Part shown: one piece after another, positions 16,481 to 48,100 of the stretch
Numbering within the stretch: the first letter of the stretch is position 1
Layout of the letters: each line of letters begins with the position of its first letter
DNA from: Marsupella aquatica
Taxonomy: Eukaryota > Plantae > Marchantiophyta
Length of the DNA: 64,000 nt
NCBI GenBank assembly: GCA_973895155.1
Contig: OZ316895.1
Location: 2,963,659-3,027,658 of the forward strand
Direction: 5' to 3'
The notes under the pieces: generated by a model
Databases searched by the model: none
Seen by the model: only the letters and a program-made list of their open reading frames with translations
What the model was told of the DNA's origin: nothing
Program-made: the position numbers and the translations under genes

Positions 16481-17129
16481 TCTCGCTCCATCACAAAATC
16501 AAGAGGCTGCCTTGAGTAAACATCGGGAACTCGAGAGTCTTTGGCTATGGAGAGAAGGCAGCCCGAACAGCTGCAACGTACAGGAGGGGTAAGTGGCAAA
16601 CCTGACATTGAATTGACATTGATTGGGTTACCCCATCGCTCCACGCTTCTTAATCATCACTGCAGCTTGCGAAATACAATGTCTCCCTTTTGCACAAACA
16701 AATTTTTGAGCTTTCACCAAAAATCATATTAGAAACTTCAGTGAAATAGAACTTGTGAATCGTTTGCAGCTCGCTGATGTCCAGGTTGCTTGATTGACAC
16801 TAACGCCTCTGTGCATTGCTTTGTTGCAGCAAGGATCGAAGCCATGTACAAACATTGCTTATCATTCATGGTCGTCAGCTCATCGTTTGACTGCCTCCTT
16901 CCTGGCTGAGAACATCAAGAGTGAAGGACAAGAACTAGTTAGTGCTGTCACTCATTCTTGTGCAAATTGTTCATACCTTCAAGCCTGACTGGCCCCTACG
17001 TATACACTTATACAGTCCTGGTCTTCATGGTTGATAGTCGAGTGCTGACATTTCTATATCAGGAGAGACATTTTTGAAATGGATACCACGATAATTGAGG
17101 GAAAGGATGTCCAAGAGGTCAGTACTAAC

Positions 17130-27419: not shown

Positions 27420-28500
27420 ACCAATGCAGTGGGGGCAAGGGGAAGGGCTCGCGAAGGGCAAGAGGTCGACGAGAAGGGGCTGGCGCAGGTCAAAGGGCTG
27501 GCCAAGGGCGAAGGGCTAGGGAAGGGCTGGCCAAGGGATGGAAGGGCTTGCGAAGGGCTTGCGAAGGGCTGGCAAACGGCTGGAAGGGCTCGCGAAGGGC
27601 TGGGGTTTAGACGATCAAATCCGAGGGGGCAAAGGGCGGCTGCGGCTCTCGATCTGATGTCGCTGTCTCCATCGATAGAGGCTCATGATAGAGGCTCGCG
27701 AGCTTGGTGGACTGGACTTCATGCTCCTCGTTTGATTTGATGCTGCTCGTCTGATTTGATTTCGTCTTCACTCTCGATGCTGCTCGTCTGATTTGATTTC
27801 GTCTTCACTCTCGATGCTGCTCGTCTGATTTGATTTCGTCTTCACTCTCGATGCTGCTCGTCTGATTTGATCTCGCTGTCTGATCTCGCAAGCTGGGCTT
27901 GGGAGCTGGAGGCTGGGATCGATAGAGGCTCGCAAGCTTGGTGGCTGGAGCTTGGTGGCTGGAGCTTGGTGGAAGGTCGCTGTCTGATCTCACGAGCTGG
28001 AGGCTGGGAGCGATCGATAGAGGCTCCCGAGCTTGGTGGCTGCTGGCTTGGTGGCTAGAGCTTGGTGGACCATATAGCAATGTCGATAATTTTTTTTAAA
28101 CTCCAAAGGGAGTGTTGCCTGCGCTGCTAACGGGAGTGTGGTCCAAAGCGAGTGTTGCGCAGCACCATGAGCTGTTGCGAGGGAGTCGAGGGAGCCGAGG
28201 ATGGTGAGTGCTGAGTGTTCCACTCCTACACTACTGCCGGGAGCTATTGCTTTGTGAGGATTGCGAGGGAGGTGAAAGTTGTGCTGTGAGGGAGGCGAGC
28301 GAGGCGCTACGAGGGAGGCGAAAGCTACACTGTAAGGGAGGCTCTACAAGGGAGGCAAAAGCTGTGTTGTGAAGGAGGCGAGGGAGGCGCTACGAGGGAG
28401 GCGACAGAGGTGAGTGCTGCACTATGATCAAGGGAAGTGCTGCGCTGCAAAGGAGGTGAGTGCTGCGCTGTGAGGGAGGCAAGCTAGGGTCAGAGTGCTC
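27420..28500 (+). repeat. GC-rich tandem repeat blocks in the left arm of the P-like element
   Basis: GAAGGGCT(G/T)GC units at 27440-27605; 37-bp unit GATGCTGCTCGTCTGATTTGATTTCGTCTTCACTCTC x3 at ~27740-27870; GAGGGAGGCG units at 28260-28480. Confidence 0.8.
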
Positions 28501-30407
28501 CGCTGTGAGGGTTGCAAGTGCTGCGCTGCTTGCTCAAACAGAGTGCTGCTCTATCAACTCTGGTATGGGAGTGCTCTTCATTTCTTGCTTTGACAATCAG
28601 GCTTTCTATGGATTGAAGTCATGTTCCAAATCATAGGCTTAGTCAAGAGGAAGTAAGTTGCTTGCTTTGTTTGTGCTTCTCACTTTTTGCTGATTGAGAT
28701 GAAGTGCTTTCAATCAGTTGCAGTTGGGCTGCGAGGTGGGCTACAAGGTGGGCTACGATCGGGTTGGGAGTTGGGCTGCAATCTGGTTACTAGGCTGCGA
28801 CCTGAGCTGGGCTGCATTGTGTTGCAATCTGTGAGTTGCATTGCCTGCAATCCGGTCCGGAGCTGAGCTACGCTGCTGCTGCAATCAAGTGCTCTTGGAC
28901 TGCTGTTGCGATTGAGGCTGTTGGAGGATTGTTGCTGCGATTGAGGCTGGTGTTGCAATTGAGGCTGGTGCTGAACTGCTATGATTCAGAGCTATTGGTG
29001 AGAGACTGAGCTTCCCTTGTTGAGCTACGTTGCTACGTTGAGCTACATTACTTGACCTGGTACTTTGCGCTGCGAGGTGGGTTGCGATCGAGTTCAGAGT
29101 TGTGCTGCAATCTGGTTGAGCTGGGTGGGTTTCTATGGCAACTGTGTCCCAAAATTGCAGGCTTAGTCAAGAGGAAGCTGCTCACTTTGTTTGTGCTACT
29201 CGCTGTGCTACTCGCTGAGGTGATTTCACTTTGAAGATGAACTAAGTGCTATGAACCGGCTTATTGTAAACGGGATTGTAAAGGAGTTATGATCAAGCTC
29301 TAGTGAGCTCTCACAACAATGTTGTTGTTAATCAATGTTGCGCTGTAGCTAGATGCCATTGCTTGACGTTGTGCTTTCAGTTGCGTTTTCAGTTGCTGGG
29401 CTGCAATCAGGTTGAGAGGTGGGCTGCGCTGTACGGAGAAACATTGGGCTGCCTCTGGAAATCAGAAAATCAGCTAAGACAATTTCCAGGCCGGGAGATT
29501 TCCAGGGAGATTTCAACTACGTTCAGGTACGGTCATTTTTAGAACTCGCTCCAGAGCTTAGTCTTCAAGTGAGCAATAGTTCTAGCTCATAGTGGAATAG
29601 GATTGACAACTCTTGTTCTACTACAGGGTATCGTTGCAGACTAAGTGATTCATTTTTTAATTATTCATTGCTTATTGGAACCGAGGCTCAAACCAAAACT
29701 TGCTTTGTTTTCAGGCTCCTCTGGCTATTGGACTGCTGTTGAGTTGCTGAGGGCTAATAAAAGTGTCCCATTTTTTACACCTCAAAGTGAAATCAGGTAT
29801 GACTTAGGGGACTCGAACATGTTTGCAACATTAATTGCATGCTTACTAGTCTGGACCAGGCTCTGGACACTACATCGAAACTTTTTTTTGCTTAGCTATC
29901 AATTTTGTAAGGACTAGGTCACACATCTCTGTGCGAAAGTGTGTTCATGTTGGGAAATTTTGACCAGAATTTGTTGTTGGATAGTTCTTATTGAATGATT
30001 CAGTTCACCCTCAAGTAGTTGCAGGGGTACAGGCAAAGCAAGGGGCTGTTGAGGAGCACCTATGTTTATGCTGCTGCAACCTCTGCTAAAATGTTGAGTT
30101 GAGGTATAGTACGGGACCTGTGCTGGTATTAAATTTTAGGTCTGTCATTTCCATCCATGACTTCAACCATTTCTAGTCGTGCAGAAGTTTATTTAGCTTC
30201 AAATGTAGTAGGAGAATTCTAATGTAGTCCATGAAGTTAATTTTGACATGTGGGCAATGTTGCTTCTATTCACCAGAGTTGATGTTGAGCTGCTGGGCGG
30301 ATCAAACTCTTTTTGAAGTGTGGTGCCTGGAGATGTTGTGAGATTCTTTAGGTTTGTCGAACGCAGAGGCAGTTGAGGTGTTGCCCCATTCTGATTACTT
30401 GTAGACA

Positions 30408-30854
30408 TTGTTACTGGTAGACATTGTTAATTCATCATTTACAAAAAACAGTGTAATGGCTATATTGAAGATTACCCTAGAGGAGAATTATGAGAAGCTC
30501 CTTTTGCAGCATCCAGACGAATGCTGCTGGTGTGAATCCTGTGTCAAGTGCAGGGTTGGCAATGGCAATTTTGAATGGTTCCATTGCTTTTGCTTGAAAA
30601 TGCGCGGAAGACTTGTTACTAGGACATACATGGCAAAGAACGGCAAAGTTGTCACACGCCGCTGGAAGTGCTCTTGTATAAGGCCAACCATTTGGCCTCA
30701 AAATGAGTGTCTTTTATGCAAGATTGTCATCCCGGACACGCTTGACATTGTAGTCCCTGATAGTATTCCACATATAACTGAGCTTGATATTGTAGCCCCA
30801 GATAGTATTCCAGATCAAGCTAAGGTTACAGCCCATGGATGCTTGACATTGTAG
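30408..30854 (+). CDS. Small Cys-rich ORF of unknown function (P-like element cargo)
   Basis: 148-aa ORF with CCWCESCVKC...HCFC...KCSC...CLLC. No family recognised. Confidence 0.4.
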   Translation: MLLVDIVNSSFTKNSVMAILKITLEENYEKLLLQHPDECCWCESCVKCRVGNGNFEWFHCFCLKMRGRLVTRTYMAKNGKVVTRRWKCSCIRPTIWPQNECLLCKIVIPDTLDIVVPDSIPHITELDIVAPDSIPDQAKVTAHGCLTL

Positions 30855-31501
30855 TCCCTGATAGTACATGGATGCGTTGTTCATATATGACTAGGCCTTT
30901 GTTTGCAAGACTGCAATTATCACCCTATTCATTAAAACTGGAATTTCTCTAGTCCAGAAGTTGACCTTCAAATTTCTTATTTTACCCCCAAAAGTTCTAT
31001 AACTTGTTCCCCAAAAGCATACATTTTAGTGGCCAAATATACACTTTTTGAGGTCTAAAATTACAATTCTAATGCCCAAATTATTAATTAAATAATTCAG
31101 TTATCAATTATTAATACTTATTAACCGGTGATGTATTATAAAAGTAAAAACCTATTTTTACAGGGTCGAGACCACGTCTGCCCCAATGCAGGCTCTAGAT
31201 GGTTTTGACCGGTTGTTGAATGTATATCAATTACTATGTAAAAATCTATGTCAAGATTATCTCGACCCAAATGTAGGGTCCACATAATTTTGACCCGTTG
31301 TTGAATCTATATCTCTAGCTATTCCCTTTGTAGAGGGTCTAGACCCAAATAACCTTTTTCTGAGAACATATCTACAAGTAAATGAGGATCAACAGCATCT
31401 AGACTCAAATGGATACTACGCATAGCTTCACTCTTTTTTCGAGTAAGAATATGTATATGTACAACTCACATCGTAACTGTTCAGTGTAGGGTCGAGATAA
31501 T

Positions 31502-32776
31502 CTAGACCCAAATCTCATGCTCCTCCACCCCGCAGAATTCATTTGAGCAAGTAAACCTAGACCCTGACGGGTCATATTTCATATCGCGATTACAGAAATT
31601 GAGAGGCTTTCTATTCCAGAACTTTGTTGTGAGGTCCCTACACCTCAAGACTTCCAAAACAAATCCCCGATGATTGTCTCTGTAGGGTCCTGTGTACTGA
31701 TATCCAATTAATGTCTTTGCAAGGTCGTTGATCGCCTCCTCCGTCAATTCCTCCATTGGTGGTAATTGTTGCACTTCATTTTTGATATCCCAGGGAATTT
31801 CGTCCGCTGTAACATCCAAGACTGTATGGATAACATTGGGAACCCATACCATACTACCCCACCTCTCCGACAACAGAGCATAAATGGCAGCCTGTTGATC
31901 CCTGTCCGATAAAACATTGATCATAGACCACTTTGGATGATTGATAAAAAGATAGTGCTGAAGATTGAAGGCATGATACAATTTCCTGAGCAGAGGCCAT
32001 AGTATTTCTGGAAAGAATGTATCATCCGTGGAGTGATGCGAAAATGAGGAAGGAAACAACCCACAATTCTCTGGATTTGCAAACGCCTTCATTGGAGTGT
32101 CATCAAGAAGGAGTGTATTAGTTTCGTCGTATAATCCACCATAACGTTTCCAAACAACCCTCAAATCCTTCAAAAGAATATTTGCCTTCCCATCGGTAAT
32201 GTCAGGCCTCTGGATTCCAGTATCGAATGTATCTTCTTGAGTGAGAATAAACTTGAATTGCTCTCTCTCTTCTTGATTGAAGATCAAATGAATCATTTCA
32301 TCTGTCCTGGGTTTCCTTGCACAAGTCCAAATGACAACATCAAATAATGAAAAAGCTGCGATTAAGAACTCATGAAGATGGGGTCGCTCAACATACATAA
32401 AGTTAAACCCTCCACGTCTCCCCCAGTGGACACCATTGACACTTGTTGCACTACGGCGCGGTCCGGAACTTGGCGTTTTGACAGAATCCCAGCACATTTT
32501 GTTGAGGTCAAGAATCAATAGCTTTCGTCTGATCGGACCGTGAAGTGGAGGCAAGGGTCCTGCAAAGTACGAACACCAACGTTAGAATTGTGGGAGATAA
32601 AACAAAGGAATGCTCGAGACGATCTCGAGCATCACAAGTGAATGAACAACAGTCAACATCATACCTGTTGTTTGTGGAAGGTCAGTAGTTGAAGAAATCT
32701 CAGGATATCTTCGGAGATTATTGTCGACGCACTCCACAATTGGTAAGGGCCCGCCTATTTCTGTGAAGGTAGACAT
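31502..32776 (-). CDS. FCP1/NIF-like (UBLCP1-like) HAD-family phosphatase homologue
   Basis: Motifs RRKLLILDLN, RPHLHEFL..F.VVIWT, KDL..VW, NTLLLDDTPMKAFANPEN. Exons 32776-32665 and 32559-31502 join in phase. The DxDx(T/V) motif is altered to DLNKM. Confidence 0.8.
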
Positions 32777-32980
32777 AATAATTTAGACGGCTGAATTTCC
32801 GGACAGTTCAAACTAACTTGGGTTTCAACCTCACGTGCTGAAAGACCCAAATTCATCTAGAAGGTTATCTCCTAGTAGGTTTTGGATGTCCAAATTTATC
32901 CCTCCGGGAAGGGTCTCAACAAGAGCTGGCTCAGACCAAACTGGCACTAATTTAAACTTATCCATCCTATACTTTCTAGA

Positions 32981-35900
32981 TCAAATAATCTTCTCAGACT
33001 GCTCTATAGAGACTTGTTGACCTTTTGACGGTCCATCAGTCCAAACATAATGAGTAGCACTTGCTTTGAGTGATTTGTAACCAGTTCTACCGATTTCAGT
33101 CCCCGGTTTCCTAACAAAAGGGAGAATTACGGGGCTTCCAGTAGAAGAATCTTTGAAAACAAGCTTATTCTCTGAAGCGCAAAACATTTGGTCCAAGGGA
33201 GAGGACGATGCACCTGCCTCGTCCTGAGGGGGAGTATGGAAGCCACTAGCTTTCTTAGTAGAGAAAATCTCATCCAGTTGAGGAGGGCTTGGAATTGGTT
33301 GGCTAATTGCATCCTGCAGGGTGGATTCCCAGCCAACATCCAAGGTTGAAGACTGTTGTTCACGTTGTGCATCCCCAAGGCCACCCGATGAAGGAACACT
33401 TGGAACATCGAGATCATCTCGAGCATCATTTCCAAATTCAGGGAGTATTTCACCCTCCTCTTCCATGTAGCTTGTAATTTTTGGGCCCTCTGTTTTGCGA
33501 TGCTCTAAATTCTCCGCAAATACTTCCTCATAAACACTGGCTTCCACTGGAGCTATGTCTGCGGCCGCCTCTTCTATAAGAACGAGGGGACCAGCAGTAA
33601 TTTCCTCAGATGGTAACGGCTCCTTGGGTGGCACATATAAAACTTGCTTGTTGTCATGAAGGAGCTGAGCAAAGGCTTCAGTGAATTCCATCTCTTGAGC
33701 TGTGTCCGAATACACAAAACAATCCCGACCAAGAATGACACAAGCTTTCAATGTCTGTCCTCCAGAGAAGAAATCCAACACTGTATGACCTGGGCACGAG
33801 AAATAATCAACAAGACGCTTTGTCATTCGCAAAGGCTTTGCTCTCGGATTTACAAAGCCACCACGCCGACCGACCATCTCATAAGATGGGGCCATCTTCT
33901 CCAAAACTTCGACATCAACAGTGGATTCATCGAGCTTCTCTTTCCCCTTTGATTGGTCTTTGTTGTTCCCAGTAGGGGCCTTCAAAGGCAAGACAGTGAA
34001 GTCTTTGTCCCACTTCTCACTGTAGTTCCAGAACGCATAAAAGTCATCAAAGAAAATTTGGGACCAGTCTGGTTCCTCTTCACAACAAATTCCCCCAAAG
34101 ATGATTGAGTCCCGAGCTCCAATGAGAAAATCTCCCTCCTCCTTGGGCACCTGATCACGGTAGTAGCTCCCGTACTCCAGCTTCGTGTGCACTTTCTTCT
34201 CACGACGAATCTTTTCAAAGGCACTCTGAATCTGGCCTATCAATGGGCCTTGACGGACAAAAAAGATTACTAAGACCTCCGTCGAGTTCGCCATCTGCAA
34301 GCAATACTCCAGCAAGACAAAAATTTTGGCATCTGTCCACTGCCGTTGTCGAATACGACCAAAATCGACAATGGAGAGTGGACACGTCCTTTGCACCGAG
34401 TCAACAACCTCAGGCTTCATTGTCCTCATCAAATTATCGCTAAAAAATGTGCGATAAGGAGTATCCTCCATTGAAGGCAATCCGCCAAATACCTTGCAAT
34501 ATATCTGCTCAAGCCTCACAATGAGACTTTGCGGAAATGGGTCTTTTGGCCTATTTCTTTTTAGGAGGTTGGAAATCCAAACCTCTCCAGCAAGTTGTCT
34601 AAGTTTGGGCAACTCACCACGATCCATAAATGCAGGCAACAATTGAGTTAGCTCAAACCAAGTGAGTGAATTGGTAAACCGATCCGGATACTTCAAAACG
34701 AAGTACTCCACAATTTTTACCCTCAGCTTGGTCATGACTTTGAAAGTATGAGCCATATCACTCATTGATTGAATATCAGATTTGTTGGCTTGGTCTTTCT
34801 TCAATAAAACCTTCTGTTGTTGAACGACATTAAAAACTTTCAGAATGTCGTCATTACTCAGGTCTCCTTCAAAGCATCTAAACAATGCCGGCGTAATCAT
34901 TTTTGTTGTCCGGGCTTTCCCGTTTATTTTTGAACCTAACTCCCCTAGACCATCCGAAAGAAGTCCCTTGACCCAATCGATGCACATTTGTCTCCAAGTT
35001 TGGAAGAGGTTCTCATCCGAAAACAACAACCAAAAAATATTCCTCAGATCGGATTTTCCAGTCGTTATTTTGGCAAGGGCCATAAAATCCTGGTCCAAAC
35101 AGTACAAAACAAATCTGAGGCTCGAGACAATCTCGAGGTAGAATTAAGGAACTATGGTAAAATTTATGGGGAATACATGAAGATAAATCAAATACAGAAA
35201 CTTGACCTTGAGGCTCGAGACAATCTCGAGCTCGAAGTGGATTTGAGTTCAAATATACCTGGAACTTTTGATGATCCGTTAGTCTATTGGACCCAATCAC
35301 GGGTCTCTCCGGACGGCCACACTCGTCAAATTGTCGACGCGCATGGACCATAGTATCAAGAAAACAGGACTCATACTCCATTGTCTTATTAACAGCATTT
35401 GCCCTTTGTGAGTGTTGAGCAAGTATTGTCCTTGGAGTTCTGTCCGAAAGAATTCGTGACTTTCGATATTGTAGACTCTTCGCGACCTCCTTCAACTTCG
35501 CTCTTAGCCCAACCTATGATCCAAACAGCTGCTTTTGCCGAGTGTTGTCCACTGATTGCAAGGAACTGCACCTTCTTATTCTTAACACCCCACTCAAACT
35601 CCTTTCGATCCTCAGTAGTATTCTCATAATGGAGCAACTGCAAACTCTCTCTTGAATACGGAATCAAATCCGCCACAGCTGGTACCATTCCAGGGTTTCT
35701 AACCATGGATTTTGCGACCTCCATGGCATGGTCTTTATTGAACATCCTATAAACCAAAACTGCAGATGGCGAATCTATACTGGTGACAGGAATGTCAAAA
35801 GTTTCATTCATGCCAAATGTGTAATACTCCTCAATCTCCTTAAGAACTTTGGCTCCTTCCTTAACGCTCTTTTCTCCCGGAGCATCTCTTGGAGTGCCAT

Positions 35901-37752
35901 CATCATCGGTATGTGCATTCACACCCGAGGAAGATGCCGGAATGAGATCTACCTTGGGCGATGCGGACTTTTTTGGCGGATGAGCCTTCTTCGATTTGAT
36001 TTCGGGTTTGTCAACCCTCTTCCTCTTTTGAGACACCTTCACTTCCTTTTTGTCCGAACCAGAGGTCTTGTCTCCTGCAGCTATGGATTTCACTTTACCT
36101 GTTTGTCTCCGATGAGACAACACCCACTTTTTACAAGCATCCTGGTCAAATTCTCCGGCTCCAAACACAAAATCAGGGGATATAGATTCAAACTCCCCCA
36201 ATTTGGATTCCAACATTAGTCTCAAAACCTTCCACGTGAAAGGAGTCGTGAATGCATCATCGCGATCAAGCCCATACTTCCGACAATAAAGGAATCCAAA
36301 AATTATGTCCGCGCGCTCCAGATATAGGAGTATCTTCTAGCAAATTACTTGTAGTAAAACCCTCGGGGAAGAAACCCATTGATATCACGCTCAGTTGTTT
36401 CCTGGCTGCACGTTCAATGTTAAGATCGCAAGAGTAGTTTTTGGCGTGAAGTCTAATTAGAGCCCACTTCCCTGTTTCGTGGTTCTCCACCGTCAAAACC
36501 ATGTCCTTACCGTTACTCGTCACAATAGAAACAACAGGCCCTAGAAGGCTGCACACCAGAGGATCGACTGATGGAGACCTCATCTTCACACAAATAATAG
36601 TTCCTTCCATGTCTTCAGTTTCAGCAAGCTCAATGGCCCAACAGAATCCAAATAAACTTTGTCCAGGGCAGGAAATCTCAATTGCATGTTCATCTTCGAC
36701 TACCAAATTAGGCGATCCCAATTTCGCACCTGGTACAGCAAAAATGTAGCAATTGTCAGGAACATGTACTACAAAACCAAGAAACAAATAGGTGGCTCGA
36801 GATGATCTCGATCTTCAGTTTACTATTCAGACATGTTCCAATGCCATTTCATCCGTGGAATTTAAAAAGAGATTTCAAACCCAAGAATCCCAAGAAACAC
36901 TATAGGCTCGAGATGATCTCGAGCCACCATCTGTTTAAAAGAAAAAGATAAGGGCTCGAGATGATCTCGATCCACATATATATCAGTTGAGGCTTTATTC
37001 CAACTGGTCCAAAAGGCAAGCTTGGATCACATTGAAAAGGATATTAGTAATTGAAGTAGACAACAAGGAGTCCTTCCAACTGGAAGAAATTGGCCAAGGG
37101 AGACGAATGAACATAAGGGAAGACGGTGTGGGATATATTCGGCTCGAGACGATCTCGAGCCTAACATATCAAATGAGTGATCTGAATATCATATTCAACA
37201 ATTAACATCATATTCAATCAACGATAAAAAATCCACTTTCTCCATTAACTTCTGATACCCACAAACCCGTTCGGATGTCAATGATCAGAACGAGTTGGAG
37301 GGCACAGAAGTCCCTGGAGGAAGGAAATTTTAGATATTTTAGATATGATGTTCAATTTTGAAGGGTAAGGGTTTCCAACTTGAAGAAATCTCACTAGGTC
37401 ACATGCAGGAATTGCATATTGGCTCGAGACGATCTCGAGCCTCATGCCACTTACATCAAATGCAAAATCAATTAATAGATCACAACTTTTGAAACAAAGT
37501 ATTGGAGAAAACATCAATAGGCTCGAGATCATCTCGAGCCTCAACGGCATCCAAGGAATCCAAAAACAAGTGGACCAATTGAAGCTCGAGATGATCTCGA
37601 GTTAAACCTGAACAGAACAAAGATGAAGAATTACGTTTAATGGTGCGATGGATCTGATGTGCTGAGTCTAGATGGGTCTGGAGCTCTTCGCCAACGGTTG
37701 CAAGGTTGTACTCAGCGAAGTCCTCCTTGGAGAAATCTACAATAGTCGACAT
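32981..37752 (-). pseudogene. Large ParB/Srx-like domain + beta-class N4/N6 DNA-methyltransferase-like fusion gene; two apparent frameshifts
   Basis: ParB-like segment IPVTSI...RMFNKDHAMEVAKSM...FLAISGQHS (~35540-35800). MTase C-terminal motifs VNPRAKPLRMTKRLVDYFSCPGHTVLDFFSGG..LKACVILGRD (~33720-33855). Phase-0 intron 35090-35258. Frameshifts near 36275 and 35500. Putative first exon from ATG 37752. Confidence 0.7.
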
Positions 37753-38894
37753 GGCTGGTGATGAGAGGAACGTACTACGGGCTGAGAACTTAAAAAAAAT
37801 CTTGAGCCTAAAAACAAATCTTGACCCTATCGAAGCTCGAGCCTAAACACAAAATCTTGACCCTATAAAATCTCGAGGAAAAAACCTAATCTCGATCCTC
37901 TGCAATCTTGAGGTTAATAGAAGGATCTCGAGGCAAGAGCGCGAAACGATCTAGAGGCAAGGAGGCAAGGGACGCGAGGAGGCGAAGAGGCAAAGAGGCG
38001 AGGAGGCAAATGTGAAAATGGGGAATTCAAAACCCCTGAAGCCACTATAAGCCCCTCGGGGGTCGGCCTTGGCCGTGCCAAGCGTGCCAGGGCTCGTGCA
38101 GGCTCAGGCAGGCTGCCACGCAACCTACTGGGTGCGTACAGTCATTATTACGGTCACACGTGTTGTCATTATTGTTATCCGTACTTCAGCCCTGCCGCAA
38201 GTTTAGCCGTGACACAAGTTCAACCATTCCGTCTTATTGCCCTTTTTGTCTGTCAGGGTTTTATATATTGCTTCTCCTTGCTCTTCAGCGGGTCATTCTT
38301 CTCATTTTGTTTCACCGCTCGCTCGTTTCTTCCTCTGCCTCTCTGCTCTCTCTCCCTCTCCCTCTCTCTGGCTCTAGATTTGTGCTCTGATCTCTTTCTG
38401 TTGTTCTTTTCAAGGGTTTTGGAGTCTACGTTTGTGTTTAGGATATTTCGAGAAATTGTCATTTTAAGCCCCGAAGGAGGTCTGAAATAATTGAGCTCCT
38501 ATCTTTTAGAAAACCGAACCTTTTCAGCTTATACTAATGTCGGTCAAAATCCATTTGGAAGCCTTTTCCCTCTATTTGATGGCCTTTTAGAAGCTTTTTC
38601 TCAGTGTCTGGAAGTAAACTGGGAGCCTACTTTCTTAATTGCACCAAATCATTCCTCTAGATCATCTAGAGCCATTTATATGTTCTTATTTTGGGTGGCT
38701 TATTATTCCTAATAGTTTCTTTGTCAAATACAATGTCCTTTTTGGCTCGAGATCATCTCGAGTCATAAGTTTGGTCCTCAAACTTATTCACTTTCCCCTT
38801 CTTTCTAATGGTGCATTTGGTTTTCCTTCTTATAATAAATGTTTTTAGAGTGTCGGAGGTATAGAATCTTAGTTCGATATTCAGTGAGATTCAT

Positions 38895-39130
38895 ATTTGA
38901 CCTCGAGATCGTCTCGAGCTAAATACTTCTGAATTTTTACATATTGGTGTTTTTGGTCCCTTTTCTACCTCGAGATCGTCTCGAGCTAAATACTTCTGAA
39001 TTTTTACATATTGGTTGTTTTGGTCCCTCTTCTACCTCGAGATCGTCTCGAGCTAAATACTTCTGAATTTTGACGTATTGGTGTTTTTGTCCCTCTTCTA
39101 CCTCGAGATCGTCTCGAGGTAGAAGAGCTT
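38895..39130 (+). repeat. Tandem ~67-bp repeat, each unit carrying the CTCGAG palindrome
   Basis: Palindrome cores at 38902, 38969, 39036 and 39102 with near-identical spacers. Confidence 0.9.
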
Positions 39131-39232
39131 CTTATTTTCTCTATCACACAATTTTGTGGGATAAACTTCTACACTTGGGTTTTTGTAGTCACTTTACCTC
39201 GAGATCATCTCGAGGTAACTACATCCAACGGT

Positions 39233-42200
39233 TTGGGCCACGTTTTCAAAATGGGGAGTTTCTCTCGAGGGGACAAGGTGTGCCTCGTAATCGACGGAGT
39301 GGAAGTTGCTTGCGGGACGGTCCTCAAGGTTGACCCGGGTGACTCAGTGCGTAATGTTGATTTGGGAAGTAATCGTATAGGAGTTCTCATTGAGAAGTGC
39401 TATGAGGGATCACGGGAAATTCCTTACCCTTTGCCGCCGATCAGGACCCTGTTTGATGCTGTCGACTCTTGCATTATTTGGGATGCCCCTTTTGCATATT
39501 TGAAGTCACAGTCAACTCCAGCGACAACGAAAATGGATGCCTCCTGTTCTACAAAGGATACGGTTCTGGGTTTTGTACCAGAGAAATCGTCGGTGGAAAG
39601 TTTTGGAGACTTGATTGTATCTGGCGATGAAGTCGAGGTCTGGATCGGCAGTCAGATTGTGGCTCGTGGATTTGTGTTCAAGACGAATCCCGATGAGACA
39701 TGTCACAATGAAAGACTTGGCACTTCTAGGATTAGTGTGAAAATATGTGAAGTCTTTCAAGGAAGGGAGAGGTTACCCTTTCCTCACAATGGAGCCGATA
39801 CCGTTCAGGAAGCATTGGATACTTTTATATTGTGGAATTTAAAGGATGTTACTCGGAGGAGTTCTTCCCGGGATATGCTAAACAACCTGTCCAGACAGGA
39901 TGTTTTTTCAAATTATAATTTCAAGGATTATAGTTTGCGTTCTAATTGGATGACCGAGGAGGTGGAATTGTATGCTGAGGATAATCAGACCAAAGTGGGG
40001 GTTGGCATCATCACAGTTCCTTTCGAGTCAGGTGCAATTGATGATGATGTTCTTGGACCAGATCACGTTGGGGTTGCTGTCACACGCGTGATTGACCCTC
40101 TATTTTTCCCAAATATCTCCCCAGGTGTGCCTGGTCTTGTTAGGTGGGCCGTCCGTTCACTTTTGCTGATATCAAGGGGTATTTTTCTTCTGGATCTCAT
40201 TGAAGAGGTTTCTCCGAAACCAATTATTGATGGTCGAGATCATCTAGAGGTAGATATGAAAGGTGACACTGAGTTTTTGAAGCGCCCGTATAATTTCATC
40301 AAGAGAACAAAGGTCAACCCAGATGAAAAAAGGAAGAAGCACTTGGAGTCTCGGGCGATACTGAAAATCACAGAGGAGGAAATCGACTCCATCCAAAGAG
40401 AAGGTTGTTGTAAGTTGAAGTGTTGCCTCAGCATGCCGAGAGAAGACCTACAAGAGATAAGGAGGGAATACCATGGGATGTCAAGCGACAACAAAACCAG
40501 TCACATTCTCACTCTTTTTGGCTGTAGGGAGAAGGAAGTGGAGACAAAAGGATATTTTGTTGTAAGAAGTAGACTTGTTTGCAAGGGTGCATTTATTAAA
40601 ATGCATGGATTCAGCACTGCCAAGTATTATGATTACAAAAATCAATATGAAGCAGGTTGCACGGTTGGATTCCACGGAAACAAGGGTTCACACAAGACAC
40701 GGGGAAGCACCTTGCATGCTCGTGCTTTGTTGGAGTCCATTCTAACCCAAAACGGAGAACCCATGCCGCATCTTCCCTATGGAGGGTCTCACGGGACTGA
40801 CACGGTTGAGTACAGACTTCCATCTTGTTTCACGAAGAAAGAGATTTTTGAGGAGGTATACTCAAAAATGGAATTAGATGGCTACGTGAAGGTGAGTGAA
40901 AACACTATGTATAAACTCTGGAGTGAGTCCTTCATGAATTTTGACTTTCACAAGGGAAGTGCATTTGCAAAGTGTACACTTTGCACTGAGTTCAAAGATC
41001 AGTTGATGCGGGAGAAGAGAAAGAAAGAGCGTTTAGAGATTGAGGAAAGAAGAGCTCGCCATCTTCGTGAGCAAATGTCTAGGAGATATGTTTACTATGC
41101 TCATAGGGTTCTTGCGAAGAAGGATCCTGAGAACTATCTTTGCATTATACATGACAAGATGGACCAGGCCAAGACATGGATCCCTAGGTTGGTCCCCACT
41201 CCTAAATCATTGTCTGGTAGTGGTCAACCGCTCCCCATTGCGCTCACTGGGATGTTGACCCATGGAAGGGATCCCGGAGTGTATGCTCACTTCAGTTTTA
41301 CTGGGCTTTGGCCAGGAGATGCAGACTTCACAGTGACATCATTGGCCAAGTGCCTTAGAGATCTGGAGGATTACAAGGGGGACAAATCTGGAGACCTCCT
41401 TGAAGGATTATATTGGGCTGCAACGAGGCCAATTTTTCAATCTCTTTTGGACTTTGAAGCATTTCTTGCAGGTTACTTAGAACCCAAAAAAGTCTCAATT
41501 GCTAGATTTCAAGAGCTGAAGATGACCAAGACGACTTTGGTGTTGATTTCAAGGCTACGTCTACCTCTTTCAAACCATTGCCAAGGCACCTGACCTTGCA
41601 AATGGATAATTCAGGGAAAAATAACAAAAACCAGTACGTGATGGCATTTTGCAGTGAGCTTGTTAGTAGAGGGGTTTTTGAAACAGTGTAGATGTCATTT
41701 CTCATGGTTGGTCACACCCATGAGGATGTCGATGCATTGTTTTCAAAAGTATCCAACCAAGTGAAGTACAAGGAGGTTTCTACCCTCTTGGGGTTGATGG
41801 CTGAGGTTTGGGAGTGTGAAAGCATTCATCCTGTGCCACGGTTGATCCAAGAGGTTGCAACTTACAAAGAGTTTTTGAAAACTTTCAAGGTAAAAGACAT
41901 AGAGGGTCACTCAAAACCAGTGGCATTTCTTTTCTCTATGAGAGATAATGTTCCAATATATCAATACAAAGCACATGTGAAACAACCTTGGGACCCTCCA
42001 ACCGGAAGGTCCATTTGGAGAACTGATTCCAACACCAATGCTCTCATTTTACCAGAAGGTCAACCGTTTGCAAAACCCATCTCCGGGGATGTACGAGGCA
42101 AGGTTGAAGAAATCATCCCACTCCTTAATCGTTACATTGAGTTTTTGAAGAAGAGCTGTAAGGATGAGACCTCTATAGCATATCATGAGCGGTTTCCTTT

Positions 42201-42939
42201 GGTGAAATATTGGGAGATGGTGGTGCAAGTATTATCTGGGGAGCTTACAATTGAAGGGGAGGCAGAAATACAGTTAGCATTGACATATGAATTCTGGCCA
42301 AAAACCAACCACGGAACTGGTTACAAGGTTAATAGTACAGGAACCTCTGAACCATTGGGGGAGCCTAGTAGTAGTACACAGAATCCACAAATGGTGGAGC
42401 TTCAGAATGAGTACCTGGAAGAGATGGAGGATCAAGCTGCAACATTTGTTGGTGCTCGACACGAGCGAGAACTTGCACGTTGGATTCCTCTGCAGGACAT
42501 TCAAGAGGGTCACTTTGTATTTCTCCGTCCAGAGGATGAATGGGAAAAGAAGAATGGGAAAGAAAATTTCTGGTTGGTGAGAGCTTTGGGTGTTGTGGAC
42601 CCAAACCATGAGGTTCCTTCAGAAGACTTGCAATGCAATGAGAATTCTCCTACTAGTACACGGTATGCTCCTATGTTCCAAGTGCAATGGTGGAGGCCTA
42701 AACATGGTAAGCATGATGCACCGGATCATGTGCAATATTCACGTTGCTTTCAGACCACTAAGACTTGGGAGGTGGATCCTGGGTTTGACAGTGCCACTGA
42801 ACGTTGGCAATTTGCTAATTCTGCTATGTATGGATTCAAGTCACGCTCTAGAGAAGAAAATATAATTGATAGAGGTTTGACCATTCCCAAGAATATTTTG
42901 AAAACACTCAAAACCTACATGGAAGGGATTGTTGAGTAA
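39233..42939 (+). pseudogene. Sola-like DDD transposase with three N-terminal Tnp1/En/Spm-like beta-barrel repeats; one frameshift and one stop
   Basis: Motifs FAKCTLC, HDKMDQAK, LQMDNSGKNNKN, SFLMVGHTHEDVDALFS. Frameshift at ~41515; TAG at 41689-41691. N-terminal repeats of the form VA.G.V...P......LG...I.V.I.....LP.P....TL..A....I.W. Confidence 0.8.
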
Positions 42940-43890
42940 GTCAAATGTTTTTTAGTAGTCACTCTGTCAGAGTGAGGGAGTCTAGTATGTCAATTAGTTT
43001 GGAATTAGACATGTCAGAGTGAGGGAGTCTATGTCAATTAGTTTGGAATCAGACATGTCTTTAGTACTTACTGAGTGTTGGTTAGTACTAAGTACTAGTA
43101 TATCTATTTAAGGAACTAATTATTATAATATTTTGGGATACTAGTTTGAATAGGTGGAGGTAATTGGACTTGGATACCTTTATAATTGCTTCAATTAATT
43201 ATTATATCAATACAGACTATATATTACATGAAGTCTTAATATCCATGATAGGATGTGAGTGCCTCTTAGTACTGTCTAGTAAACCTTAGTTTCAACTCGA
43301 GTTGCTTAGAATGTACTAACAAATTACTTGTCTGAATGGATATTTAAACTAAACCCTAAGTAGAAGGTTAATTTAGCTAGCTAAGGGTAGAGATCATATT
43401 GAAGCTTTACTAGTTATATGGGTAGAGATCATATTGAAGCTTTACTAGACACTTATATTCTATTAGTCAAATTGAATCAATGTAAGTAAATTCTACTTCT
43501 TATCCAACATATTTTACATTATTATCACCCAAATGTTTTTCTTTAGAATCCAAATTAATATTTCATTTTCTCCTATGTACAATCTTGATCCCCCAAATGT
43601 ACAACTCCCACTGCCCAAATGTACAATTCTTGTGCCCAAATATATATTTTTTGGTGCCTAAATGTCCAAAGATCAAAGAATTTTCCAGTTTTAATGAATA
43701 GACTGATAATTGTACCATCCATGATATATGAGAATATTTTTCATTCCCATTATGTGGCAAAGTTTCGCAAGCTGGCATTGTATTTATGTATGTCTTGGTT
43801 GGTCTGTGTTCAGGTTGCACTGTGTAGTTGACTTCATCTGGGAGGGAGGTTTGCAGATCGTTGGAGCAGGTGCTATGATTCACCTTATCT

Positions 43891-44640
43891 TTGTCTATGG
43901 ATTGCCAACTATCATACATGTCCCCCTCATATGTGATGTGCTTTGTGATGATTGCAGTTGTAACCATGCCGACAAGGAATTCAAACATGAAGAAAGCAAC
44001 ACAGTCCTCTGACAAAGAAGCCTCTTTAGAAGAGGTATTGCGTATTCCGTTGTTCTCTGAGCAAGAGATTCTACAAACTAGCCCTCATGTTTGTGCAATT
44101 TGTGAGCATGGTGGGAAGTTGGTAATTTGTGATGGGCCATGTCACAGGCAATTTCATTATGTGGTTGGAGATGAAGCCCCTAATGACTCTTGCCCCTGTG
44201 TAGTCCTTCCCCTCCATCATGGAGGGAAGCCATGGTTTTGCCCAAATTGTAACCAGGACCAGGCCATGTGTTATGGGTGCCGCACTGTGGGACTGTCACC
44301 TACAATTGTGCGAAAATGCTCTGATCATTTTTGTGTACGATTTTATTGCTTTGGGTGTTTGGTAGCCGATGCAAAGTCCTGCCCACTACATACATGTGTG
44401 ACATGTTATCAGAGTCTTGAGGGTCAGATGGTCAAGAACATGGTACAATGTCTACGATGTCCAAATGCCTGGCATACAGATTGTCTCCAGATGATCAAAA
44501 GCAAAGGGTTTGCTCATGATAGGGACATCTGGGAACATGAAGCACATGGACAACAGCGACAGATGTTTTATTGCCCCCGTCATCCTATTGATCCACACCT
44601 CAAGACTCCAATCAGGGACCACATTTCATGGCTCCAGTGA
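43891..44640 (+). CDS. EDM2/NSD-type triple PHD-finger protein (P-like element cargo)
   Basis: CAICEHGGKLVICDGPCHRQFH...WFCPNC...CPLHTC..C...CLRCPNAWH..CL...YCPRHPIDPHLKTPIRDHI matches the EDM2 PHD cassette. True start may be 43966. Confidence 0.8.
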   Translation: MSMDCQLSYMSPSYVMCFVMIAVVTMPTRNSNMKKATQSSDKEASLEEVLRIPLFSEQEILQTSPHVCAICEHGGKLVICDGPCHRQFHYVVGDEAPNDSCPCVVLPLHHGGKPWFCPNCNQDQAMCYGCRTVGLSPTIVRKCSDHFCVRFYCFGCLVADAKSCPLHTCVTCYQSLEGQMVKNMVQCLRCPNAWHTDCLQMIKSKGFAHDRDIWEHEAHGQQRQMFYCPRHPIDPHLKTPIRDHISWLQ

Positions 44641-45135
44641 TCTGAATAATGAACAAACCTATTACTTAGGTTTCAACGTCGTAGTGGGGTATGAGCAAGG
44701 CAAATACTTAAGCTGCATCATGGGTGGTAGTACCCAATTTTATTAGTGTTGACATTTTGTCATAATTAAGGTCACTAATAGTGCTGCATTTTGATGAGCA
44801 GAAGCACTAAACCTCGGGAACTGTTAGAAAAGCAGGCGAAAAGGATATTTTGTCCAAAGATATTTTATCCAACTTTAACGGTATATCTTGATTTTCACTG
44901 AATACATTTGCATGTATGACGGATTGCATTATAAAGTGTTTTGGCCTATTAGCACTTCTATTGTTAAATGTATGCTGACATTATGTACATTACATGAGAA
45001 TGTGTATGTTGTCATTGCATCTCTTGAAGATCCTAATGTGTTTCCCTTGTGTGTATTTCAAATGTATTTGTGCAGGTCTTTCTGTTATCGACTCCAAAAG
45101 CAATGGTGCTATGCATGTTCTAGATTTGTATTGCA

Positions 45136-48100
45136 ATGGCAGCCCCTAAACCCAACTCTGTTAAATTAATACGCAAAGTTGGGGATGACAAGGCTGATTT
45201 ACCAATCTGTGTTTTGTCATTCAAAGAAGGACACACCCTACATGATTTTAGGGCTCGTATTGCCTCTACTCTAGACTTTGACTTTGATTTTTGGGATGAG
45301 AGACTTCCTGGTCGAGTGAAACTTGTACATGAGAAATTAATTGATCTGTCTGAGCTGGATGGAAGAGTTATTGTTGTACAACAAGAACTTGGAGATGGTG
45401 GGAGGATCCCACCAGTACCCTGTCATCCTTGCACTCCTGCATCATTGGGTCCAAATACTGGGACACCACAACTGGGGCCAACAGCACCAACACCCTCCCC
45501 TGTAAGGGCTTCTTTTGAGTCACAATTGATGGGAGATGTCCCATCAAAGCTATGGAAAGATGAGTGGATGAGGTTAGAGAAATGGGTACATAAGAAGGGT
45601 TATGGTGATCACAATTGGAGAATTCGTACCTGGGATGAGGGGACAGATGTTCGAGGGCATCTGGAGTGTCTTGAATGTAGGGAAACTTATGGCAATGCAG
45701 ACAACTCTCAGAACCCTAAATCCATCTCCAATTGCTTTAGTAATTTTAAGACCAAACACTTGGTCTTCAATAAGCACAAGGATAACTATTGTCGGAGGAG
45801 GGGCATTCCTTCTACTTTGGTTCAGGTAGCAGACATCTCTGAGAAGCCAGAATATGATCATGCAGATGCCATCAAAGTAGGTGTTGAGATAGTTCAGCGA
45901 TTGAATGTTGAGCTTGGGGATGATGGCAAACTATTCTCTATTGTTCCTGATCCCAGTACTCCTGAGTATGTAAACAGGTCTTTCCTGTTTAAGGTTCGTT
46001 GTACTGTCTGTGGAATGCTTCACACTGACTTGTGCCCCAAGAAGCTTACCTTGGAGCCCAATTTGAGGACACACTTAGTGAGTCGAGATCACTTGGATGC
46101 ATTGGAGACTAGGCATGACACAAAAATGCTTGCCTTGAGGTCTGGGAAGAGGGGCAGGCCAAAGAGGACTGATTCTAGGGACCTACATCCTGGTCAGAGC
46201 GGGATTTTGAAGTTCTTTAAAGATGATGGGTCCCGGACAGGCAGCAGTTCAGGTTCAGGTGTGTGTGAATCTGTTGATCTTGGTCTGAGTTTGCTTTGCT
46301 GGGGATTATGGGTAGAGAGAGGTGTACCTCGACTGTTATGGAAGGGTATATCTTATGATATTTCTGGCATTTTGGATGATCAGTCTGGGGGAATTACATG
46401 GCATTGTGAGCCAAGTTGTTGCTTGGATGTTTTCCATCCAAGTAGAGAGAGTGTTGTGAGTATAGCAGGCTGTTTTAGACACAAGGATTGCTTGAGGTTA
46501 TCACAGAATGGAGGAGGATTTGAAAATCTAACTTGTAGTGAATGTGATTCTATAACACTAGAAGATGATTTTCGTGGACGGGTGCACAGGGAAGCGGAAG
46601 CAGTAGTCCACAAAGGGAGCCGAACCACTGTTGGTGGTATACGTTTGGATTATTTGACCAACACAGAGTTAAGAGATCAAGTGCACAAGCTGAACTCTGT
46701 GCGACGAAAAGAGCGTTGGTTGTTAGCTTTGCAGGCTCAGAAAGTATGTGCCTTGAGCACCAGGAAACGAAAACTAGAGGAGTTGTTAGGAGTTGCAGCA
46801 GACAGGAAGGATTTGAGATTGTTTCTTAGGAGTATTTTGAATGGACACAGGAATGGTGCATTTGGTGGTAAGGAGGGTTTGTGGGATTTCTTGAAGGATG
46901 TAGCTCGCAATTTAGGCAGGAAGCCAAAAGGTAAATAATCGTTATAGTAATAGGACTCGAGCTATTGCTCAGGCTATGTTCCAATTTGGGGGCCGTCAAG
47001 TTGCTCATTGTTTTGCACGAAACTTGACAGCCCCTAGCCTTGTGACCCTAAAACGTGATAGAGCAAAACTCACACCTTTTTGAACCGGGTTACGGAAGGA
47101 AACCTTTCAGGAGATTGCTAGAGTGTTGTCTGCTGCAAAGCACTCATTGGGCATTGAGGGGGATGTGCCTGTTATCTTTGCTGAGGATGAAACAAGGATC
47201 AAAGAACGCCCTAGGTAATTGGAATTGGACATTTTTCCAATTGTTTTTTTAATGACTTTACAAGTAGCACTTGGCTGGAATTGCTGTGATATTGAAAAAT
47301 TGCATGTTTGTGTTTCAGGTGGGAGGCAAAGTATGATACTCTCATTGGTTTCTGTGGACCTTCAGAGCAGCATGTATGCTCCTATGGTTTGGAAATTCTA
47401 GTTGGTGAAGGTGATGAGGGGTATGATAAAATTGTAAGTACATTTGAACAATGCCCCAAGTGCATGTATGCCCGAGTTGTGATTGTGAATCCTCTGCATG
47501 AGTCCTTACCTAAATTGGCTGTGTGTGCACTTCCAACTTGTAATAAGTTCACAGCTTCTTGGGTACGAGAGCATTGGGTCCAGTTAAAGGCTTTTTGGGA
47601 TGAATATTGTAGAGCTATGGTAGGCCCTTTGCTTGGACATGCTAGTGATGGTGATGCACGTCGCCGAAAGTTGATGCTGGAAGATTACAGAGGGCAGAAT
47701 GGATCATACCCAAGGTACGGAGTTGGGTGGGAAGGGTGGACATACTCTGTTTCAATTCTACCAAATGGGGATTTGTATGGCTTTGGTGACCAAGACCAAC
47801 CTCATAATGGGAAAAAGATGATAAACCCCTTAGACAGAGTGTCTTCTTTACTGGTGCTAGGAGATCAACATGCATCTTTATCTTATGTAGCTAATGTCTA
47901 CAATCATTATCCAATTCATGAACATGGCATGGCTTGGGATGATGTGAATAGGACTGACCGGCAGAATTGGGCAGGTCCACAACGAATAGCAGCAAGAAGA
48001 GTGCAGCAATGTCTGAAATATATGTATGAGAGGAGAGATGTACGACATGAACGAAGTTTAGGAACTCAGTTGTACTTGGAGATTTGTGCAAATTACTTAG

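What the first reader, a model, noticed from the sequence alone, without database searches (positions are those of the whole stretch)
30919..43707. Sola-like transposon carrying a ParB-DNA methyltransferase fusion, a HAD phosphatase homologue and its own palindrome array: candidate ParB/parS-like self-marking system
Seen: a bounded element (25-bp TIR, AATT duplication) with a transposase transcribed divergently from a ParB-like + N4/N6-MTase-like gene and an FCP1-like gene, plus about 20 copies of a 17-bp palindrome seen only between the TIRs. Established: ParB proteins load at ~16-bp palindromic parS sites and spread along DNA; ParB-MTase fusions occur in phages and prokaryotic mobile elements; Sola elements make 4-bp TSDs, with Sola1 preferring AWWT. 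Inference: the element may encode a site-loaded DNA-modifying or DNA-binding protein that marks its own copies (anti-silencing, self/non-self discrimination or transposition control). This copy is decayed.
Basis: partly seen in the sequence, partly recalled or inferred. Interest (0 to 1): 0.92.

Follow-up and report, generated by a model that had tools for sequence, protein, structure and literature searches.

The report
Plant transposon with ParB pseudo-methylase gene
A damaged copy of a 12.8-kb plant jumping gene carries a bacterial-style ParB-plus-methylase-fold gene and 19 copies of its own 17-letter palindrome; the protein likely binds those palindromes but has lost the usual catalytic motif, so it is probably a self-binding regulator rather than a DNA-marking enzyme, a design already reported in algae.

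Summary
The element spans 30919-43707, with 25-bp TIRs (23/25), an AATT duplication and an empty site in three of four sequencing runs. It holds 19 palindromes; none lie outside it and 0.07 are expected. It carries a DUF7869 DDE transposase, a divergent ParB + beta-class-MTase-fold gene and a NIF/FCP1-like frame. Relatives occur in liverworts and a fern. A model of a natural full-length relative confirms the MTase fold (Z 17.9) and, more weakly, the ParB fold (Z about 7).

The catalytic [DNS]PP[YFW] motif is absent from 0-of-36-positive aligned relatives, and the ParB CTP-box arginine is serine in 9 of 9. DNA marking and a CTP clamp are therefore unlikely. Seventeen of 19 sites lie in predicted introns or leader, and their core CpGs show no transitions (0 of 38) while 12 of 19 spacers do, as expected of a bound site.

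Best reading: a self-binding regulator of a Sola1-type transposon. Binding is untested. The design is published for Ectocarpus Sola1-1 and red-algal Plavaka elements. New here are the land-plant family, the likely dead enzyme and the NIF cargo.

The parts
30915..30918 (.). left target-site duplication AATT
   Evidence: sequence; empty site with a single AATT in 3 of 4 runs
30919..30943 (+). left terminal inverted repeat, 25 bp
   Evidence: 23 of 25 match to the right TIR
31023..31081 (+). left subterminal CCCAAA-type repeats, similar to 43617-43669; distinct from the palindrome
   Evidence: families D12 and D19; role as transposase sites is inference
31164..31515 (.). degenerate palindrome variants (GTCGAGA...TCTAGAC type) near the left end
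31502..32559 (-). NIF/FCP1-like HAD-fold exon; motif I reads DLNKM, not DxDxT
   Evidence: Pfam NIF E 3e-17; TIGR02245 E 6.5e-14, below its cut-off; UBLCP1 E 6.7e-10
32560..32664 (-). predicted intron GT..AG holding palindrome 32613
   Evidence: predicted, no RNA
32665..32782 (-). short predicted exon in frame with the NIF exon; link to the MTase-like exon unresolved
   Evidence: 96 nt from the CAG acceptor, out of phase with a GT donor at 32834
32831..35089 (-). exon for helical middle domain, beta-class MTase-like fold (D-F-G-R in place of DPPY; DFFSGG loop), disordered linker and conserved C-terminal domain; premature TGA at 32981-32983
35090..35258 (-). predicted phase-0 intron with palindromes 35121 and 35214; relatives' frames end or begin at the same place
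35259..36729 (-). exon for N-terminal beta-rich part, basic linker and ParB/Srx-like domain (SGQHS box); two frameshifts in this copy (near 36310 and 35497)
   Evidence: fold from relative P0102
36730..37634 (-). predicted phase-1 intron (905 nt) with 7 palindromes
   Evidence: predicted, no RNA
37635..37752 (-). predicted first coding exon (ATG 37752), in frame with the 36729 exon
37753..39250 (.). divergent promoter / leader region; 7 palindromes at 38655-39198, four of them in or beside a 66-67-bp tandem unit
   Evidence: promoter role is inference
32613..40249 (.). 19 copies of (S)CTCGAGAYSRTCTCGAG(S) at 32613, 33407, 35121, 35214, 36796, 36907, 36955, 37143, 37423, 37522, 37585, 38655, 38746, 38902, 38969, 39036, 39102, 39198, 40233
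39251..42939 (+). Sola-type DDE transposase gene (three ~90-aa N-terminal repeats, CxxC, HDKMD / QMDN / GHTHEDVD); frameshift near 41512 and TAG at 41689
43683..43707 (-). right terminal inverted repeat
43708..43711 (.). right target-site duplication AATT

Best explanation
This is a decayed copy of a multi-copy, likely Sola1-type cut-and-paste transposon of a plant (probably a liverwort or similar seed-free plant), whose second gene is predicted to encode a ParB-fold protein with a likely catalytically dead methyltransferase fold that likely binds the element's own 17-bp palindromes. Shown: the ends and empty site, the folds (on a relative), the family-wide loss of the catalytic motif, the confinement of the palindromes to the element and their constrained cores. 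Inferred: a two-fold symmetric ParB/KorB-like dimer docks on the palindromes that flank the divergent promoter (14 of 19 lie in 36796-39198) and sit in the introns. It then controls the element's own two genes. Most likely it keeps them from being shut off by host methylation, by occupying CpG-bearing sites and recruiting partners, as VANC proteins do for VANDAL elements; it could also act as a KorB-like autoregulator. The MTase-like and NIF-like domains would serve as binding or scaffold modules, not as writers.
For: Fusion is natural: P0102 (1009 aa) holds both parts in one frame; P0023 (Calypogeia fissa) and P0088 (Riccia sorocarpa) join the ParB part to downstream parts. AF2 model of P0102 on 34 sequences: mean pLDDT 69, pTM 0.59. 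Residues 463-737 match CcrM (Z 17.9, rmsd 3.6, 224 aligned), M.MboIIA, M.RsrI and M.PvuII. Residues ~66-220 match PadC (Z 7.6), SerK, sulfiredoxin and SbnI, and longer stretches match KorB (Z 7.0, 77-372, rmsd 12.9) and Pnob8 ParB (Z 6.8); Noc scores E 7.2e-4 by Foldseek. Motif IV: 0 of 36 ungapped rows have [DNS]PP[YFW], and 32 of 36 keep only D; of 109 proteins held, only bacterial P0083 has the motif. ParB box SGQHS in the window and 8 of 8 relatives with that region against the GxxRxxA CTPase signature (PMC13495010). Sites: 17 of 19 in predicted introns or leader (P 5e-7). Flanks are unrelated (mean best identity 36%; 3 of 171 pairs at least 20/30). Core CpGs: 35 intact, 3 TCTAGA, 0 transitions of 38; spacers: 12 of 19 TGA/CAA/TCA (Fisher 1.5e-7). 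This copy does show CpG-type decay elsewhere (7 of 33 listed differences). Precedent for palindrome arrays beside transposon ParB genes: Bostrychia PAG3.
Against: No binding was tested, and no DNA around any distant relative could be read, so co-variation of palindrome and protein is untested. The ParB match is Z 6.8-7.6, under the tool's caution level of 8; no profile library found ParB, and no helix-turn-helix was demonstrated. Placing D496 at motif IV is inferred from its position at the end of strand 492-496, because the aligners gave no residue pairs there (searches aligned only the C-terminal half). DFFSGG is kept in 24 of 35 rows, so the cofactor loop is still under constraint. The ancestral spacer is known for only one site (35129), and the sites are not independent. 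Arrays of the same core word stand next to unrelated Harbinger- and Mutator-type transposase frames with no ParB hit in the short contigs read. An LTR-element region in this window has its own palindrome, five times.
Confidence: 0.5

Rival explanations
1. The palindromes are bound by the transposase (or another element protein); the ParB-MTase-like gene is separate cargo with other targets.
For: Transposases can act as sequence-specific activators of their own copies (bioRxiv 10.64898/2026.08.24.746577, abstract). This transposase has three N-terminal repeats and a CxxC motif. CTCGAGA-type arrays flank DDE_Tnp_4 (L001, L002) and Mutator-like (L003, L004) frames with no tblastn hit to the ParB/MTase proteins.
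Against: The exact sites are 1.7 kb and 3.5 kb from the ends; the ends have other repeats. Nine of 19 lie in introns of the ParB gene. Those contigs are 1.5-4.7 kb and may simply not reach an accessory gene.
Confidence: 0.2
2. One reading: an active but atypical amino-methyltransferase is loaded at the palindromes and writes 4mC or 6mA over the element as a self mark.
For: The whole beta-class fold is kept. The aspartate (32 of 36) and DFFSGG (24 of 35) are conserved. Of 45 best-supported coding differences to sister copies, 25 are synonymous. 4mC writers exist in Marchantia (bioRxiv 2021.02.12.428880, passages). A 4mC on the core CpG could also explain the lack of transitions.
Against: 0 of 36 rows have the PP-aromatic part of motif IV, which in known enzymes (established knowledge) positions the target amine and stacks the flipped base; MpDN4MT1 keeps TSPPY. 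The glycine loop has a one-residue gap against M.RsrI and P0083, and the motif II acid aligns to Ser.
Confidence: 0.13
3. The protein is a CTP-dependent sliding clamp like chromosomal ParB that loads at the palindromes and coats or bridges the element, helping to pair the ends of a long transposon.
For: ParB/Srx fold, with KorB and Noc among the matches; parS-sized palindromes.
Against: GxxRxxA reads GQHSxxA in 9 of 9. The sites cluster in the middle of the element, not at its ends.
Confidence: 0.09
4. The palindromes are by-products of local duplication or are sites for a host factor, unrelated to the cargo gene.
For: Four copies sit in or beside one 66-67-bp tandem unit. Other repeats in the window also carry palindromes.
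Against: Most copies share no flanks, avoid coding sequence and keep their core CpGs; this argues against neutral by-products, though not against a host factor.
Confidence: 0.08

Closest known systems
Sola1-1_Ec32 of Ectocarpus (PMC12477816; passages and supplement rows read)
   Same: Sola1 element, 4-bp TSD, accessory gene on the strand opposite the transposase, ParB-like + N4/N6-MTase domains (1104 aa); same self-modification hypothesis
   Different: Brown alga, 21.5 kb, 282-bp imperfect TIR. The passages read mention no palindromes, no NIF gene and no check of catalytic motifs. Its sequence was not compared here, so kinship of the proteins is untested.
Plavaka accessory genes PAG2/PAG3 of red algae (bioRxiv 10.1101/2025.02.11.637652; section 8 and passages read, supplements not seen)
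   Same: ParB-like gene on a giant DNA transposon with inverted-repeat arrays beside it; PF01555 methylase cargo
   Different: EnSpm/Plavaka transposase; ParB fused to a 2OG oxygenase; methylase on a separate gene with a SET domain
VANC anti-silencing proteins of Arabidopsis VANDAL elements (PMC5735166; abstract and section titles read)
   Same: Plant DNA transposon whose accessory protein binds short motifs in the element's own non-coding parts; the proposed working analogy
   Different: Mutator superfamily; protein not ParB-like (recalled); function shown by experiment there, not here
Beta-class DNA amino-methyltransferases (CcrM, M.RsrI, M.PvuII; Adineta N4CMT; Marchantia DN4MT1)
   Same: Fold and domain order (Z 15-18)
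   Different: No [DNS]PP[YFW]; shortened glycine loop; fused behind ParB
KorB / ParB / Noc
   Same: N-terminal fold; palindromic sites of similar size
   Different: Arginine of GxxRxxA replaced by serine; no ParA partner in the element

Membership tests
Sola1 transposons | 4-bp target-site duplication of AWWT type | tested here: met
   AATT on both sides; empty site; AWWT called a Sola1 hallmark in PMC3845634. One insertion only.
Sola1 transposons | Terminal inverted repeats | tested here: met
   25 bp, 23 of 25
Sola1 transposons | DDE transposase that groups with curated Sola1 transposases | tested here: inconclusive
   DUF7869 hits and candidate D, D, E motifs; no named Sola1 reference sequence was on hand; equating DUF7869 with Sola is recalled; Bao 2009 not held
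Beta-class N4/N6 DNA methyltransferases | Beta-class Rossmann-like fold and order | tested here: met
   Model of relative P0102: Z 17.9 to CcrM, 16.0 to M.RsrI; profile E 2.2e-8 to M.RsrI
Beta-class N4/N6 DNA methyltransferases | Catalytic motif IV [DNS]PP[YFW] | tested here: not met
   0 of 36 ungapped rows; none anywhere in 108 of 109 proteins held
Beta-class N4/N6 DNA methyltransferases | SAM-binding motif I FxGxG and motif II acid | tested here: inconclusive
   DFFSGG in 24 of 35, one residue shorter than M.RsrI; acid aligned to Ser, with an Asp one place on in many rows
Beta-class N4/N6 DNA methyltransferases | Methyl transfer to DNA | not testable with these tools
   needs assay or long-read kinetics
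ParB CTPase clamps (ParB/KorB/Noc) | ParB/Srx N-terminal fold | tested here: met
   Six ParB/Srx-fold entries at Z 5.7-7.6 on the N-terminal part; Noc E 7.2e-4; ParB-labelled phage protein top in BFVD, E 4.5e-9. Moderate scores, on a relative.
ParB CTPase clamps (ParB/KorB/Noc) | GxxRxxA CTP-binding motif | tested here: not met
   SGQHSxxA-type box, Ser at the Arg position, in 9 of 9 (motif); correspondence by spacing
ParB CTPase clamps (ParB/KorB/Noc) | Helix-turn-helix that reads a palindrome | tested here: inconclusive
   Helical region 200-460; KorB and Pnob8 alignments extend to ~370 with rmsd 12.9 and 5.0
FCP1/SCP-type HAD phosphatases | NIF domain | tested here: met
   PF03031 63 bits against a cut-off of 21.8
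FCP1/SCP-type HAD phosphatases | DxDx(T/V) catalytic motif (recalled) | tested here: not met
   LILDLNKMC in this copy; one sequence only
Algal transposon ParB-MTase accessory proteins (Sola1-1_Ec32 type) | ParB + N4/N6-MTase gene opposite the transposase in a giant DNA transposon | tested here: met
Algal transposon ParB-MTase accessory proteins (Sola1-1_Ec32 type) | Sequence kinship with the algal proteins | not tested
   Algal sequence not available as a tool record; named hits were liverwort and fern only (12 of 20 proteins looked up carried a species name)

The most novel reading that the evidence does not exclude
Seed-free land plants harbour a widespread class of transposon anti-silencing factors built from bacterial parts: a ParB-derived dimer with a pseudo-methyltransferase that binds CpG-bearing palindromes, shields them from host methylation and, through a fused or co-transcribed FCP1-like domain, engages RNA polymerase II at the element's divergent promoter. 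This would be a second, independently invented VANC-like system, programmable by a 17-bp word.
Probability: 0.2. Interest if true: 0.8.

Novelty: new variant of a known kind. Interest (0 to 1): 0.5.

Why it matters
Two 2025 algal papers proposed that ParB-type accessory proteins bind and modify their own transposons, but nothing read here tests it. This family supplies a sharp candidate site, lives in tractable plants (Riccia, Ceratopteris) and changes the prediction: the methylase is likely dead, so the function should be binding, shielding or recruiting rather than writing a mark. If confirmed, it is a new sequence-specific counter-silencing strategy in plants and a possible tool for holding a locus open.

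Tried and rejected
No whole genome is held, so other copies could be seen only through contigs laid on the window. No RNA holder was listed; all splice sites are predictions. A single-sequence fold of the window's ParB part failed (pLDDT 36). The search for longer relatives of the ParB exon found 0 of 212 candidates. Pfam, PHROGs, NCBIfam and PDB sequence searches gave no ParB hit; tblastn of P0108 in phages gave one hit at E 7. No relatives were found in viral contigs or prokaryotic genomes. The paired-palindrome scan of metagenome contigs gave 11 loci, and the single-site scan of viral contigs 26 loci; none had tblastn or blastn similarity to the element. Translated palindrome footprints in relatives' proteins: 0 strict hits; the loose pattern gave 3 hits, all from the P0001 cluster, against 1.8 expected, so I set it aside. 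Alignment A2 misplaced the five ParB-only fragments; they were left out of the motif counts and A3 was used for folding. In-frame fusion of NIF to the MTase exon does not work with the canonical sites of this copy; the Riccia gene model P0074 has them fused, so it stays open. A tree of 19 MTase-like domains put the window with unnamed P0001 and P0014 and added nothing on function. Earlier-findings look-ups by sequence, place and one word set were blank.
Full report
1. Observation. The element is real and its borders are exact. It has 25-bp TIRs matching at 23 positions, with AATT on both sides. Contigs in 3 of the 4 runs laid join 30914 to 43708, the empty site with one AATT. The flanks are themselves repeated, so the empty site probably comes from other copies of the host repeat. 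Between 1,119 and 8,249 contigs per run lie on 28500-46000, spread from 99% to under 90% identity: a multi-copy family with subfamilies. The palindrome CTCGAGANNNTCTCGAG occurs 19 times with at most two mismatches, all within the TIRs, against 0.07 expected.

2. Genes. The plus strand carries a transposase in three pieces with DUF7869 hits (26 of 30 Atlas neighbours carry it), a CxxC motif and candidate D/D/E motifs. The minus strand carries a predicted multi-exon gene from ATG 37752 to TGA 32831, then a NIF-like frame. Sister copies differ in length at 36310 and 41512 (4 of 4 runs) and at 35497 (3 of 4 runs), and relatives read through the stops, so these lesions belong to this copy. A search of 1.84 billion representatives with the middle and MTase-like part gave 98 hits. 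Of 20 proteins looked up, 12 carried species names: Riccia sorocarpa (10 of the 12 asked about were Riccia or Calypogeia, one more Riccia in a cluster), Calypogeia fissa and Ceratopteris richardii. The host is therefore most likely a seed-free land plant (inference). P0102 is a natural 1009-aa protein holding the ParB part and the MTase-like part in one frame. P0074 from Riccia joins MTase-like and NIF domains in one gene model, so the NIF association recurs in a distant family.

3. Folds. An AF2 model of P0102 (34 sequences, mean pLDDT 69) matches beta-class amino-methyltransferases over 463-737 (CcrM Z 17.9, rmsd 3.6, 224 aligned). It matches ParB/Srx-fold proteins over its N-terminal part: PadC Z 7.6, KorB 7.0, Pnob8 ParB 6.8, SerK 6.8, sulfiredoxin 5.7, SbnI 5.7. 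Foldseek adds Noc (E 7.2e-4) and a ParB-labelled phage protein as top viral hit (E 4.5e-9). The ParB scores are moderate, and the model is of a relative (35% and 26% identical to the window's two parts).

4. Active sites. Where motif IV should lie, at the end of strand 492-496, the family reads D-F-x-R. Of 88 rows in alignment A2, 36 were ungapped there after five misplaced ParB fragments were dropped: none has [DNS]PP[YFW] and 32 keep the D. Among all 109 proteins then held, only the bacterial P0083 has the motif anywhere. The glycine loop DFFSGG is kept in 24 of 35 rows but is one residue shorter than in M.RsrI and P0083. The ParB box reads SGQHS in the window and in 8 of 8 relatives that cover it, where CTPase ParBs have GxxRxxA (PMC13495010, passages). 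The NIF motif reads DLNKM. All three borrowed enzyme domains look disarmed yet conserved; 25 of the 45 best-supported coding differences to sister copies are synonymous (a selected list).

5. The palindrome behaves like a bound site. Seventeen of 19 copies fall in predicted introns or the transposase leader, which with the rest of the non-coding DNA make up a third of the element (P 5e-7); 14 flank the divergent promoter. Apart from one tandem unit the flanks are unrelated. Of 38 core CpGs, 35 are intact, 3 read TCTAGA and none shows a transition, whereas 12 of 19 spacers have a form expected from deamination of CGA/TCG. This copy shows CpG-type decay elsewhere (7 of 33 listed differences, one in a spacer). 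Caveats: the ancestral spacer is inferred and the sites are not independent. Against a private ParB link, the same core word forms arrays beside unrelated Harbinger- and Mutator-type transposase frames in 4 of 11 short metagenome contigs, and another palindrome recurs five times near the Copia element of this window.

6. Mechanism. Most likely (0.5) the accessory protein is a non-catalytic, sequence-specific binder of these palindromes that regulates or shields the element's own promoter region. Rivals: transposase binding (0.2), an active atypical methylase (0.13), a CTP clamp (0.09), by-product or host factor (0.08). No binding, expression or methylation was observed here.

7. Relation to what is known. 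PMC12477816 (passages and supplement rows) describes Ectocarpus Sola1-1_Ec32 with a 1104-aa ParB + N4/N6-MTase gene opposite the transposase and proposes self-binding and self-modification. bioRxiv 2025.02.11.637652 (section 8 and passages; supplements not seen) reports inverted-repeat arrays beside ParB-like PAG3. PMC4738411 (passages) lists ParB-HTH-fused and inactive transposon MTases. PMC5735166 and bioRxiv 10.64898/2026.08.24.746577 were seen as abstracts (a term search of the latter found no Sola or ParB). PMC3845634 and PMC5751038 were read as passages on Sola. Full-text searches listed no paper on such an element in land plants or on loss of its catalytic motif; subscription papers, Repbase Reports and Iyer 2011 (seen only as a reference) were not covered. 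Unchecked notes of this scan describe similar ParB-plus-palindrome elements in other eukaryotes; they are no support, but they suggest the design is recurrent.

8. Verdict. A real feature and a new variant of a known kind. Interest 0.5.

Noticed in passing
window 30252-30918 and 43708-49383: The element sits inside another high-depth repeat with a PHD-finger frame (43879-44640) and two long frames (45124-46938, 47296-49383) that have no Pfam or PDB hit; possibly an unclassified DNA transposon.
   Followed up: partly
window 39251-40201: The transposase begins with three ~90-aa repeats (19-30% identical) with no Pfam or PDB match; by recall they resemble a beta-rich domain of CACTA/MuDR accessory proteins.
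   Followed up: partly
window 56597-58337: Five copies of a different palindrome, TTCATGA(A/T)TTCATGAA, downstream of Copia-type pol frames at 52477-55689.
   Followed up: partly
window 35685 (run X3 loose end): A contig joins sequence like the element's left end directly to 35685: a likely deletion derivative lacking the MTase-like and NIF parts.
   Followed up: no
L001, L002, L003, L004, L005, L008, L009: Metagenome contigs with dense TCTCGAGA arrays at 11-bp period; four lie beside DDE_Tnp_4 or Mutator-like transposase frames.
   Followed up: partly
window 18603-20395: Tc5/pogo-type transposase (HTH_Tnp_Tc5, DDE_1) next to a BRCT-domain frame on the other strand (15680-16498).
   Followed up: partly
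window 3775-4263 and 12311-12850: Two copies, about 8.5 kb apart, of a U-box-containing frame.
   Followed up: no
window 24800-26000 and 61485-62830: Two arrays of a ~35-bp unit that look related and lie in opposite orientation; they could be the long subterminal arrays of a much larger element enclosing this region.
   Followed up: no
L015:2217-5420: A GC-rich phage head region with four loose copies of the palindrome; probably chance at 69% GC.
   Followed up: partly
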